DNA of 64,000 bases from a virus (taxonomy: Duplodnaviria > Heunggongvirae > Uroviricota > Caudoviricetes), in IMG/VR virus record IMGVR_UViG_3300045988_003641, positions 1 through 64,000 of that record; one strand, 5' to 3'. The notes under the pieces are model-generated. The model was given only the letters and a program-made list of their open reading frames with translations, searched no databases and was not told where the DNA came from. This document shows, piece by piece, positions 17,290-18,705 of the stretch (positions are counted from its first letter, which is position 1; the number at the start of each line of letters is the position of its first letter). Made by a program: the position numbers and the translations under genes.

Positions 17290-18705
17290 ATGAGCGAATT
17301 ATTTAAACATGCGCACCTTCATGCAGGTCGAACTGAAAATGGTGCTGTAAACCATACTTCATCAATGTCTGCTCTTGTAGACTTTTACAAAGCTGCTGGT
17401 TCAAGCCGTAGCAACGTAGAAATCTTACCAGACCTGTTCTACAAAGCTTTGCGTGAGGATGTTGATGTTGCAGTTCGTATTTTGCTTCATATGCGAGATG
17501 TACGAGAAGGTATGGGTGAGCGTAAAGCCTTCAGAACTGTTTTACTTCAAGCGATTGAAGACAAAGTTTTAGAGCCTACGCAGGTTCTTCGCATTATGGA
17601 TAAGATTGCAGAACTTGGTCGTTTTGATGACTTCAAAATCTTCGTAGGTACTCGTTTCGAGACAGATGCCTTCAAACATCTAGAAGCAGCATTACTAGAC
17701 CCTGCAACAGCAGGTTTGGCGGCTAAGTGGTTACCACGAGTCAAACCACGTCATAAGCAGTTTGTAAAACGTTTCTGCAAGTTTGCCAACTTGAGTGAGA
17801 AAGAGTACCGCACACTGTTGTCTGCACTATCTGATACAGTTGAGCAAAAAATCTCTGCTAATGAGTTTGGTAAGATTGACTACAGTAAGATTCCTTCACT
17901 TGCTGCTGCACGTTACCAAAAACTGTTTAACCGCAAAGATGGAGAACGCTACAAAGCTTACATCGAGTCCTTATCAAAGGGTGAGACTAAGATTAATGCT
18001 GGTGCTGTTTACCCATACGATGTAATTAAATCTGTTAAGCATGGTAATGCAGATGTTGCTAATGAGCAGTGGAAAGCACTACCAAACTGGATGGCAGAGG
18101 GTGAAAACATCTTGTGTATGTCTGATGTTTCAAGCTCAATGTCTTGGGTGAATTTTGGTTCAATTACTGCTCTTGATATTGGTGTTTCACTTGCATTGTA
18201 TGTAGCAGAACGTAATACAGGTTGCTTTAAGAATGAGTTGATGGTTTATTCAACAAACCCTCACTTCATCGAACTGAGTGGTGATTTACGAAACCGTCAT
18301 CGTCAGGTGATGCGACACGTTGAATATGGCTCAACTAACTTACAAGCAGCTTTTGACCGCATTCTTGAGATAGGTAAGAGAAACAACTTGACTCAGAAAG
18401 ATATGCCAAGTAAGCTTATCATCTTCTCCGATATGGAGTTCAATCAGGTTGATGGGGCTAACGGTCGTACAAACTTTGAAGCAATTCAGAGTAAGTACAA
18501 AAAAGCTGGATACGAAATGCCTCAACTGGTATTCTGGTACTTAGCAAACCGTAATGGTACTTGCGAAGTGTCTGTTAAGGATAACGGTGTAGCAATTGTA
18601 TCTGGTTTTTCTCCAGCTACTTTAAAAGCTCTGCTTGGTGGTGAGAAGTTTGACCCAATCAGCGTAATGCTCAAAGCAGTAATGATTGACCGTTATATCT
18701 GGTAA
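17290..18705 (+). CDS. vWA-domain protein with helical N-terminal domain; Ro60/TROVE-like (Rsr-like) architecture
   Basis: C-terminal vWA MIDAS pattern DVSSS...T(YGSTN)...D(IIFSDME) after about 270-aa helical region; sits immediately upstream of tRNA array. Confidence 0.5.
   Translation: MSELFKHAHLHAGRTENGAVNHTSSMSALVDFYKAAGSSRSNVEILPDLFYKALREDVDVAVRILLHMRDVREGMGERKAFRTVLLQAIEDKVLEPTQVLRIMDKIAELGRFDDFKIFVGTRFETDAFKHLEAALLDPATAGLAAKWLPRVKPRHKQFVKRFCKFANLSEKEYRTLLSALSDTVEQKISANEFGKIDYSKIPSLAAARYQKLFNRKDGERYKAYIESLSKGETKINAGAVYPYDVIKSVKHGNADVANEQWKALPNWMAEGENILCMSDVSSSMSWVNFGSITALDIGVSLALYVAERNTGCFKNELMVYSTNPHFIELSGDLRNRHRQVMRHVEYGSTNLQAAFDRILEIGKRNNLTQKDMPSKLIIFSDMEFNQVDGANGRTNFEAIQSKYKKAGYEMPQLVFWYLANRNGTCEVSVKDNGVAIVSGFSPATLKALLGGEKFDPISVMLKAVMIDRYIW

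What the first reader, a model, noticed from the sequence alone, without database searches (positions are those of the whole stretch)
17290..18705. Ro60/TROVE-like vWA protein encoded directly upstream of the tRNA array
The 471-aa product has a helical N-terminal region of about 270 aa and a C-terminal von Willebrand A domain with a full MIDAS pattern (DVSSS, then Thr in YGSTN, then Asp in IIFSDME). That architecture is the one seen in Ro60 (Rsr) RNA-binding proteins, which act with Y RNAs in RNA quality control. Its position 165 bp before the first tRNA, and next to the structured non-tRNA elements in the array, fits a phage-borne Ro60/Y-RNA module. It has its own promoter embedded in a dyad (17221-17256).
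Basis: partly seen in the sequence, partly recalled or inferred. Interest (0 to 1): 0.85.

Follow-up and report, generated by a model that had tools for sequence, protein, structure and literature searches.

The report
Phage Ro60-like protein with Y-like RNAs
This Felix O1-type phage gene encodes a ring-shaped Ro60-like protein (its near-identical twin in phage Bas63 is reported to defeat a bacterial defence), and just downstream, hidden between the tRNA genes, lie four apparently undescribed small structured RNAs that look like its Y-RNA partners.

The parts
17221..17256 (+). Promoter-like site (TTGACA-18-TAAAGT) embedded in a 12-nt-arm dyad upstream of the gene
   Evidence: consensus match only, function not tested
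17290..18705 (+). Gene for the 471-aa Ro60-like protein (helical ring domain about 1-265, vWA/MIDAS domain about 274-455); DUF2828+DUF7788, PHROG 850; orthologue of Bas63 gp130
18716..18752 (+). Hairpin (9-12 bp stem) just after the stop codon, with a TTGACA-17-TAATAT promoter-like site inside it
18815..18844 (+). Promoter-like site (TTGACA-18-TAAAGT, TG-extended) 27 nt before the first tRNA
19037..19114 (+). E1, short Y-like RNA element (UGAC / AGA / AGACCAA ... UUGGUCU / G / GUCA, then AUUACAGCAA); fills the spacer between tRNA-Glu and tRNA-Met
   Evidence: best Rfam match is Dicty_Class_I_RNA at 17.5 bits, not significant
19203..19268 (+). E2, short Y-like RNA element; fills the spacer between tRNA-Met and tRNA-Asn; its outer stem is UUGC/GCAA here and UUAC/GUAA in other Felixounaviruses (compensatory change)
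   Evidence: Dicty_Class_I_RNA 24 bits, E 0.0054 in a 77-nt search
19592..19671 (+). E3, short Y-like RNA element (outer stem GAGC/GCUC; GGGC/GUCC in the 64%-identity relative L085)
19679..19816 (+). E4, long Y-like RNA: the same stem-bulge-stem plus CAGCAA module closing a circularly permuted tRNA-like domain (anticodon-like or variable hairpin, T arm GAAGG-UUCGAUU-CCUUC, closed 7-bp acceptor-like hairpin, D arm GUGU-AAUGGUA-GCAC)
   Evidence: same-class elements in L088 and L089 hit Rfam YrlA
18871..24437 (+). tRNA array (26 tRNAs) that hosts E1-E4 and presumably supplies their processing by the tRNA maturation enzymes
   Evidence: the processing step is inferred

Best explanation
The ORF encodes a phage Ro60-like protein: an alpha-helical ring fused to a vWA/MIDAS domain. 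It belongs to the DUF2828/DUF7788 family, a very divergent sister of TROVE/Ro60, and is the orthologue of Bas63 gp130, which is reported to counter the Ppl defence. Four small RNAs (E1-E4) are encoded just downstream on the same strand, interleaved with the first tRNAs, and are most likely its Y-RNA-type partners. Each has 5' and 3' ends paired in a bulged stem (outer 4 bp, a 3x1 internal loop with an invariant A, and a 7-bp inner stem with an invariant G-C pair), followed by single-stranded UUACAGCAA. E4 adds a permuted tRNA-like domain, as in bacterial YrlA. Inferred steps: the array is transcribed from the promoters at about 18724 and 18815; RNase P and tRNA 3'-end processing of the flanking tRNAs release E1-E4; the protein binds the bulged stem and CAGCAA region as Ro60 binds Y RNA; the resulting RNP acts on a host 3'-to-5' exonuclease activity. 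Shown: fold, orthology, RNA covariation and gene-RNA linkage. Taken from the literature: the anti-Ppl phenotype, and that the protein alone is enough for it in T7. Inferred: RNA expression, RNA binding and the molecular target. My preferred guess for the anti-Ppl step is that the ring shields single-stranded 3' ends or occupies Ppl. That guess is weak (about 0.3).
Against: Pfam TROVE is never hit, and sequence searches of the PDB give nothing significant. The N-terminal 220 residues are linked to Ro60 only by a predicted fold. No element reaches an Rfam gathering score: YrlA scores at most 42 against 69, and does not hit E4 in the window at all; the canonical GNCGAA motif is absent. Individual elements are AU-rich and fold only modestly better than shuffles (z -0.9 to -2.7). 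Helices 1 and 2 of the covariation test were selection criteria, so only helix 3 is independent. Many loci are near-identical Felixounaviruses, so pooled p-values are inflated. There are no expression or binding data. gp130 alone rescues T7 on Ppl, so the RNAs are not needed for that phenotype. The strict descriptor finds an element in only about 18 of 82 distant loci. The negative control is a single phage.
Confidence: 0.7

Rival explanations
1. The protein is a stand-alone protein inhibitor of the Ppl nuclease, for example binding it through the MIDAS face or capping DNA 3' ends. The neighbouring RNA elements serve some unrelated purpose and are not its partners.
For: gp130 expressed alone from a plasmid or from the T7 genome restores T7 growth on the Ppl strain. 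Ppl is described as a ssDNA 3'-5' exonuclease, which is not an RNA system. vWA/MIDAS domains are classic protein-protein interaction modules (midasin and integrin hits).
Against: The elements follow the gene on the same strand across phages with 38-64% identical proteins, including loci without tRNAs. Long copies are YrlA-like, and YrlA is the established partner type of bacterial Ro60. Host RNAs could substitute in the T7 experiment. A protein-only role against Ppl does not exclude an RNP role elsewhere.
Confidence: 0.13
2. E1-E4 are cis-acting signals on the polycistronic transcript, such as processing sites for RNase E, III or P, spacers that help tRNA maturation, or operators through which the protein autoregulates. 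They would not be stable trans-acting Y-like RNAs.
For: They occupy tRNA spacers almost exactly (E1 and E2 lie 4-9 nt from the flanking tRNAs). In some distant loci a single copy sits immediately upstream or downstream of the gene, like a UTR element. Their thermodynamic stability is weak. There are no expression data.
Against: Multiple clustered copies occur where there are no tRNAs between them (L088-L090). E4 and its relatives carry a full permuted tRNA-like domain typical of stable Y RNAs. The T5 tRNA array lacks them. The single-stranded CAGCAA is conserved, which a simple processing stem does not need.
Confidence: 0.13
3. The protein is an ordinary vWA/MIDAS protein, such as a MoxR-type co-chaperone, a chelatase subunit or a TerY-like protein, and the Ro60 resemblance is an artefact of structure prediction.
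For: Pfam VWA_2 and VWA_CoxE give weak hits. There is no TROVE hit. Ter genes occur in some related phages.
Confidence: 0.03

Closest known systems
Bas63 (Escherichia phage JohannRWettstein, MZ501086) gp130, anti-Ppl counter-defence protein (PhageMaP preprint, PMC11482910)
   Same: 98% identical (460/471), the same length, and the same position 164-165 nt upstream of tRNA-Pro. The authors report it as structurally similar to Ro60 and as countering Ppl.
   Different: Nothing material at the protein level; this is the same gene in a sister Felixounavirus. The preprint guessed that some annotated tRNA genes might be Y RNAs. Here the candidates are instead unannotated spacer elements E1-E4.
Ro60 / Rsr (TROVE + vWA) with Y RNAs, including Thermus phage phiLo Ro60 with Yrl1 and Yrl2 (PMC12135203)
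   Same: Ring plus vWA/MIDAS architecture by fold. Candidate partner RNAs are encoded next to the gene on the same strand and have a stem-bulge-stem formed by the 5' and 3' ends.
   Different: There is no Pfam TROVE signature, identity is 11-17%, and the protein is about 70 aa shorter than cellular Ro60. The RNA motif is (A)AG...UUACAGCAA...CUG instead of CGAA/GNCGAA. The RNAs are embedded in a tRNA array. Binding has not been demonstrated.
Bacterial YrlA Y RNA (Rfam RF02553; Chen et al. 2014, PMC4201824)
   Same: A basal stem plus a permuted tRNA-like domain in the order T arm, closed acceptor-like stem, D arm. Same-class elements in L088 and L089 align to the full YrlA model with E about 1e-5 to 1e-6. 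E4 becomes a callable tRNA once un-permuted.
   Different: All scores are below the gathering score (42 or less against 69). E4 in this window is not hit at all and carries an extra hairpin. CAGCAA stands where the model places GNCGAA. The partner protein is DUF2828-type, not TROVE.
Dictyostelium Class I RNAs (Rfam RF01414; Kjellin et al. 2021, PMC7919456)
   Same: A short terminal stem with compensatory changes, a conserved motif directly after the 5' stem strand (CCUUACAGCAA, against NNUUACAGCAA in the phages), conserved AAG at the start and CUG(U) at the end, a variable interior, and clustered genes. In two larger scans the model's only hit fell on one of my elements.
   Different: Scores are 17-27 bits against a gathering score of 41.5, and E3 has no hit. 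The phage elements have an extra outer stem and are longer (66-83 nt). Class I RNAs are eukaryotic, reported as unique to dictyostelids, and their only named binding protein is the RRM protein Rnp1A. Whether Dictyostelium has a DUF2828/DUF7788 protein could not be tested.
Stable RNAs of unknown function in the phage T5 tRNA region (and, from memory, T4)
   Same: Non-tRNA stable RNAs, some tRNA-like, interleaved with phage tRNA genes (T5 annotation).
   Different: The T5 array has no CAGCAA element, and the fetched T5 stretch has no homologue of the gene. No sequence relationship is shown.

Membership tests
Ro60 / TROVE proteins | Pfam TROVE (PF05731) sequence signature | tested here: not met
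   No TROVE hit for the protein at E<=1 or for any of 46 family members at E<=10
Ro60 / TROVE proteins | Helical (HEAT-like) ring domain followed by a vWA domain, as in solved Ro60 structures | tested here: met
Ro60 / TROVE proteins | vWA domain with a complete MIDAS motif (DxSxS, T, D) | tested here: met
   D279, S281, S283, T349 and D381 are present and invariant
Ro60 / TROVE proteins | Detectable sequence homology to Ro60 by profile comparison | tested here: inconclusive
   hhalign gives 87% probability, E 4e-6, but only for residues 222-445 against Ro60 302-527; the N-terminal 220 residues are not aligned; 10 of 46 members weakly hit vWA_Ro60
Ro60 / TROVE proteins | Y-type RNA encoded nearby on the same strand | tested here: met
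   E1-E4 lie 332-1111 nt downstream; the linkage holds across distant loci; long copies are YrlA-like
Ro60 / TROVE proteins | Physical binding of Y RNA and of misfolded RNA 3' ends | not testable with these tools
   Needs EMSA, CLIP or a structure
DUF2828/DUF7788 family (PHROG 850) | Pfam PF11443 + PF25043 above gathering score; full-length PHROG 850 match | tested here: met
   103.5 and 148.2 bits; phrog_850 E 1e-182; more than 2,400 homologues with the same architecture
Bas63 gp130 anti-Ppl counter-defence protein | Orthology (near-identity and synteny) | tested here: met
   460/471 identical, same position
Bas63 gp130 anti-Ppl counter-defence protein | Counter-defence activity against Ppl | not testable with these tools
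   Reported for the orthologue only
YrlA Y RNA (RF02553), applied to E4 | Reaches the Rfam gathering score (69 bits) | tested here: not met
   No hit on E4 even at E<=10; related elements in L088 and L089 score 40.9 and 42.1 bits
YrlA Y RNA (RF02553), applied to E4 | Permuted tRNA-like domain (T arm, closed acceptor-like stem, D arm) closed by a basal stem | tested here: met
   MFE fold; ARAGORN calls a cloverleaf after un-permuting
YrlA Y RNA (RF02553), applied to E4 | GNCGAA(N)G motif near the 5' end | tested here: not met
   The only match in E4 (19735) lies in the T stem, and the motif is not enriched; CAGCAA/AGAAG stands in its place
Dictyostelium Class I RNA (RF01414), applied to E1-E3 | Reaches the Rfam gathering score (41.5 bits) | tested here: not met
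   E2 24 bits, E1 17.5 bits, E3 no hit
Dictyostelium Class I RNA (RF01414), applied to E1-E3 | Short 5'/3' stem with compensatory changes plus the conserved motif ...UUACAGCAA directly after the 5' strand | tested here: met
   compared with the definition in PMC7919456
Dictyostelium Class I RNA (RF01414), applied to E1-E3 | RNA starts with AAG and ends with CUGU; length 42-65 nt | tested here: inconclusive
   A-AG and CU-G are conserved at the inner stem, but the RNA ends are unknown, an extra outer stem is present and the elements are 66-83 nt long

The most novel reading that the evidence does not exclude
The stem-plus-UUACAGCAA RNAs are the cognate 'Y RNAs' of the whole DUF2828/DUF7788 Ro60-like clade, which spans phages, giant viruses and eukaryotes. 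Dictyostelium Class I RNAs, abundant RNAs of unknown function thought to be unique to dictyostelids, would then be the eukaryotic members of this RNA class. That predicts a Ro60-like protein partner in Dictyostelium and an RNA-surveillance or nuclease-modulating role rather than a role specific to multicellularity.
Probability: 0.25. Interest if true: 0.9.

Novelty: new variant of a known kind. Interest (0 to 1): 0.72.

Why it matters
Ro60/Y-RNA particles are a conserved but poorly understood RNA-surveillance system, and phage versions are only starting to be studied. The protein here belongs to a family found in more than 700 sequenced phages, and its orthologue is reported to counter a bacterial defence system, yet no RNA partner has been identified for the family. 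Defining E1-E4 provides concrete, mutable RNA candidates, with invariant positions to target, for binding, structural and genetic tests. It shows that some phage 'tRNA arrays' also carry non-tRNA RNAs that are missed by annotation or mis-annotated as small ORFs. It links a domain-of-unknown-function family to Y-RNA biology. The shared signature with Dictyostelium Class I RNAs, if it reflects real kinship, would open a direct route to the function of an RNA class that has been unexplained since 2004.

Tried and rejected
Sequence routes to Ro60:
- Pfam TROVE gave no hit and NCBIfam gave nothing.
- phmmer and hmmsearch against PDB sequences gave only E about 0.5 to Ro60.

RNA searches that did not help:
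- The canonical Y-RNA motif GNCGAANG is not enriched; its one array match is in E4's T stem.
- Rfam YrlA and Y_RNA gave no hit on the window array, on the mycobacteriophage LilDestine locus, or on P778, L007, L008 and L011.
- The 9-mer CAGAAGACC with one mismatch was too noisy to trace the elements in distant loci. I replaced it with structural descriptors.
- I considered building a covariance model of the elements but did not. The 30-110 nt variable interior would be scored as an insertion and would cancel most of the signal, so a transparent descriptor with strand and shuffle controls was used instead.
- Folding energy alone does not single out the elements (z -0.9 to -2.7).

Doubtful hits:
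- L011's 48-nt hit, and three hits inside coding sequence (L002, L083, L091), are probably false positives.
- The LilDestine candidates are tentative.

Resources that were unavailable:
- The afdb50 fold library.
- Avesson 2011 and Aspegren 2004, so I could not check whether a vWA protein was among the four Class I RNA-associated proteins.
- The primary Ppl mechanism paper.
- No tool route let me ask whether Dictyostelium encodes a DUF2828/DUF7788 protein.

Full report
OBSERVATION. The ORF at 17290-18705 (+) exists and encodes 471 aa. ARAGORN finds 26 tRNAs on the same strand from 18871 to 24437, so the first tRNA begins 165 nt after the stop codon. A TTGACA-18-TAAAGT site lies at 17221-17250, inside an inverted repeat with 12-nt arms at 17222-17233 and 17245-17256. 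Promoter function is not tested.

WHERE THE WINDOW COMES FROM. The gene matches 251 phage records at the DNA level, nearly all Felixounavirus (Felix O1-like myoviruses of Escherichia, Salmonella, Shigella and Citrobacter). Their annotations vary: hypothetical, vWFA, DUF2828 family, or RNA-binding protein. At the protein level the family is in 710 phage records from many hosts, including Vibrio, Listeria, Staphylococcus, Campylobacter, Enterococcus, Bacillus and Mycobacterium. In the mycobacteriophages, homologues at about 33% identity are annotated 'Ro-like RNA binding protein'.

WHAT THE PROTEIN IS.
- Pfam assigns DUF2828 (partial) plus DUF7788, with VWA_2 below threshold and no TROVE hit. 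PHROGs gives a full-length match to phrog_850, 'RNA-binding protein'. The mycobacteriophage 'Ro-like' protein has the same Pfam architecture.
- Sequence searches of the PDB find nothing significant.
- An AlphaFold model built on the family alignment is confident (pLDDT 88.5, pTM 0.88).
- By Foldseek, the top 12 PDB matches are all Ro60/TROVE proteins aligned over 494-555 columns: Thermus phage phiLo, Xenopus, human and Deinococcus Rsr. Only vWA domains follow.
- Among predicted viral structures, family members (including giant-virus proteins) come first, then phage proteins annotated TROVE or Ro-like.
- At profile level, hhalign against human+Xenopus+Rsr gives 87% probability and E 4e-6 over 205 columns. 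The match covers the last ring helices, the vWA domain and a C-terminal GF(D/S) motif. The Ro60 sequences were verified against the PDB.
- Ten of 46 family members weakly hit Pfam vWA_Ro60.
- The experimentally validated phiLo Ro60 is itself barely detectable from human Ro60 (E 0.005).
The protein therefore has a Ro60-like fold and is probably a distant homologue, but it belongs to a separate sequence family.

WHAT IS ALREADY KNOWN. The PhageMaP preprint (PMC11482910) studied Bas63, a Felixounavirus. Gene 130 lies directly upstream of the tRNAs. [quoted passage not shown] Deleting it gives tiny plaques on a strain carrying the Ppl defence, and gp130 alone, from a plasmid or inserted into T7, rescues T7 on that strain. 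The authors speculated that some annotated tRNA genes might be Y RNAs. bas63_0130 is 460/471 identical to the window ORF and occupies the same position. A 2026 review describes Ppl as a ssDNA 3'-5' exonuclease activated by nucleotide depletion and by 3'-OH ends made by phage homing endonucleases. The protein half of the finding is therefore already in the literature.

THE RNA ELEMENTS.
- Reading the array spacers showed a repeated motif. AGAAGACCN5CAGCAA occurs exactly four times in the 64-kb window, all in the array, against 0.56 expected.
- Each copy is followed by GGUCUG. All four fold alike: a 4-bp outer stem that differs between copies but stays complementary, a 5'-AGA/3'-G internal loop, an inner stem, then single-stranded (A/U)UUACAGCAA. 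The coordinates are E1 19037-19114, E2 19203-19268, E3 19592-19671 and E4 19679-19816. E1 and E2 fill the tRNA spacers to within 4-9 nt.
- The same four elements occur in other Felixounaviruses and in Moogle, with compensatory changes such as E2 UUGC/GCAA to UUAC/GUAA.
- Relatives with 46-64% identical proteins have the same architecture with different stem sequences: AGUAU/AUACU, AGUGU/ACACU, GGACU/AGUCC, GGAUU/AAUCC, AGAGC/GCUCU, AGAAG/CUUCU.
- I aligned 25 non-redundant elements from 12 phage loci or contigs, with the variable interior removed. 96% of cells are paired. The covariation score is 0.92, against 0.23 for shuffles and 0.16 or less for slid registers.
- Helices 1 and 2 were search criteria. 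The two extra pairs of helix 3 were not, and they are 88% paired with five pair types each.
- Invariant positions are the last loop A, the second inner pair G-C, a U two bases before CAGCAA, and CAGCAA itself.

E4 IS A PERMUTED tRNA MIMIC. Inside the common closing module, E4 has four parts in this order: a hairpin that Infernal aligns to the tRNA anticodon arm, a T arm with a UUCGAUU loop, a closed 7-bp acceptor-like hairpin, and a D arm with an AAUGGUA loop. I cut it in the acceptor-hairpin loop and rejoined the native ends. ARAGORN then calls a cloverleaf tRNA, with the stem/CAGCAA module placed as an 'intron' in the anticodon loop. This layout is the one described for bacterial YrlA. Rfam YrlA does not hit E4 itself. 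In the ~145-kb phages, however, the long elements of the same class are hit over the full YrlA model, at 42.1 bits with E 6.7e-6 and 40.9 bits with E 1.5e-5. Both are below the gathering score of 69. In that alignment the tRNA-like domain matches strongly, and ACAGCAAAUAC is placed on the 5' basal-stem strand that carries YrlA's GNCGAA motif. That positional correspondence is approximate.

THE ELEMENTS FOLLOW THE GENE, NOT THE tRNAs.
- A specific descriptor built from the invariant positions gives 67 hits on the gene strand and 1 on the opposite strand across 91 loci (1.1 Mb). Shuffles give 0.3. In the window it finds only E1-E4.
- In loci with no tRNA at all (L027, L034, L038, L045, L047, L059, L077) an element still lies within about 400 nt of the gene.
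- In ~145-kb phages, 3-5 elements sit between the stop codon and the first tRNA.
- In 82 distant loci CAGCAA is the most enriched 6-mer within 400 nt of the gene on its strand (53 loci against 20.2 expected, p 2e-14). Its reverse complement is not enriched.
- The 25-tRNA array of T5 has no element, and the fetched 30-kb T5 stretch has no homologue of the gene.
- Caveats: many loci are near-identical; the strict descriptor detects elements in only about 18 of 82 distant loci; there is a single negative control; single elements fold only modestly better than shuffles.

MECHANISM. The best-supported reading is a phage Ro60-like/Y-like RNA module.
- Shown here: fold, orthology, RNA covariation, and gene-RNA linkage.
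- From the literature: the anti-Ppl phenotype; adjacency of Y RNAs to Ro60 genes; and phiLo Ro60 binding adjacent Y-like RNAs and host PNPase and attenuating its activity.
- Inferred: E1-E4 are released from the tRNA precursor by tRNA-processing enzymes, are bound by the protein at the bulged stem/CAGCAA module, and help direct or gate the particle towards a host 3'-5' exonuclease.
- gp130 alone rescues T7 on Ppl, so the RNAs are not required for that phenotype. They may tune the protein, protect it, or serve another target. How the protein blocks Ppl is unknown. Shielding of single-stranded 3' ends by the ring is my preferred guess, and it is weak.

AN UNEXPECTED RESEMBLANCE. The only non-tRNA Rfam family that repeatedly touches the short elements is Dictyostelium Class I RNA. 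E2 scores 24 bits (E 0.0054 in a 77-nt search), E1 17.5 bits and a short L088 element 26.8 bits. E3 has no hit. None reaches the gathering score of 41.5. The published definition of Class I RNAs nevertheless matches, feature for feature, what I derived independently for the phage elements. It specifies a short 5'/3' stem with compensatory changes, an 11-nt motif CCUUACAGCAA directly after the 5' strand, a conserved AAG start and CUGU end, a variable interior, and clustered genes. In both larger scans the model's only hit fell on one of my elements. Class I RNAs are reported as unique to dictyostelids and have no known function. The DUF2828/DUF7788 family occurs in eukaryote-infecting giant viruses, and the papers that mention DUF2828 concern plant proteins. 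I could not test whether Dictyostelium encodes such a protein, and the pull-down paper is not held. No paper found links Class I RNAs to Ro60. I rate real kinship at about 0.25.

NOVELTY AND VERDICT. The protein interpretation is correct but already published for a 98%-identical orthologue. I found no description of the spacer-encoded Y-like RNAs, their conserved signature, their linkage to the DUF2828/DUF7788 family across phages, or the permuted-tRNA nature of E4. Overall this is a new variant of a known kind (Ro60/Y RNA), with a speculative cross-kingdom extension.

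Noticed in passing
window 19817-19960: A roughly 143-nt region between E4 and tRNA-Lys folds into a multi-branch structure closed by a stem of about 24 bp. The whole 429-nt gap has z -4.5 against shuffles. Bas63 annotates small minus-strand ORFs here. This may be another unannotated RNA.
   Followed up: no
window 20445-20524: A tRNA-like sequence scores 31.7 bits on the Rfam tRNA model, above the gathering score of 29, but ARAGORN misses it. It has a UCU (Arg) anticodon-like loop and an insertion of about 20 nt. 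Bas63 and Moogle annotate a tRNA-Arg at the equivalent place.
   Followed up: partly
window 20213-20444: The best promoter-like site of the region (TTGACA-17-TATAGT, 11 of 12) lies inside the array. It is followed by about 190 nt with weak tmRNA-like matches.
   Followed up: no
window 20762-21166: An HNH homing-endonuclease gene sits inside the tRNA array (phrog_2255, E 1.5e-45). This may be relevant because Ppl is said to sense 3'-OH ends made by phage homing endonucleases.
   Followed up: partly
window 21931-22025: A 95-nt spacer (z -3.7) contains GAAGACCGU, the 5' core of E2 and E4, within a stem-bulge-stem, but has no CAGCAA. It may be a degenerate fifth copy.
   Followed up: partly
window 21270-21522: A 253-nt spacer (z -3.6) ends in a near-perfect hairpin of about 30 bp just before tRNA-Leu.
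   Followed up: no
window 16837-17208: A 123-aa DUF5681 / phrog_4114 gene of unknown function lies directly upstream of the Ro60-like gene here and in Ounavirinae-like contigs L085-L087. It is not present in the ~145-kb phages.
   Followed up: partly
L088, L089 and L090, upstream of the gene (about 2000-7600): In ~145-kb phages, NAD-salvage genes (NAPRTase plus a PRPP-synthetase-like gene) lie directly upstream of the Ro60-like gene, which suggests a counter-defence neighbourhood.
   Followed up: no
L092 (phage T5, 28-42 kb of the record): The T5 tRNA region is annotated with eight 'stable RNAs with unknown functions', some of them tRNA-like. They do not match the CAGCAA descriptor.
   Followed up: partly
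L082 5441-5709 (Mycobacterium phage LilDestine): The 369-nt non-coding gap after the 'Ro-like RNA binding protein' gene contains CAGCAA sites with possible stems, including GGUCUGG as in Felix O1-like phages. These are tentative, and there is no Rfam hit.
   Followed up: partly
window 14078-15211 (- strand): A 377-aa ORF contains three tandem Ig-like repeats of about 90 aa (PVITQQP...TVTVN), seen in the ORF listing. Bas63 annotates the equivalent gene as an immunoglobulin-like domain protein.
   Followed up: no
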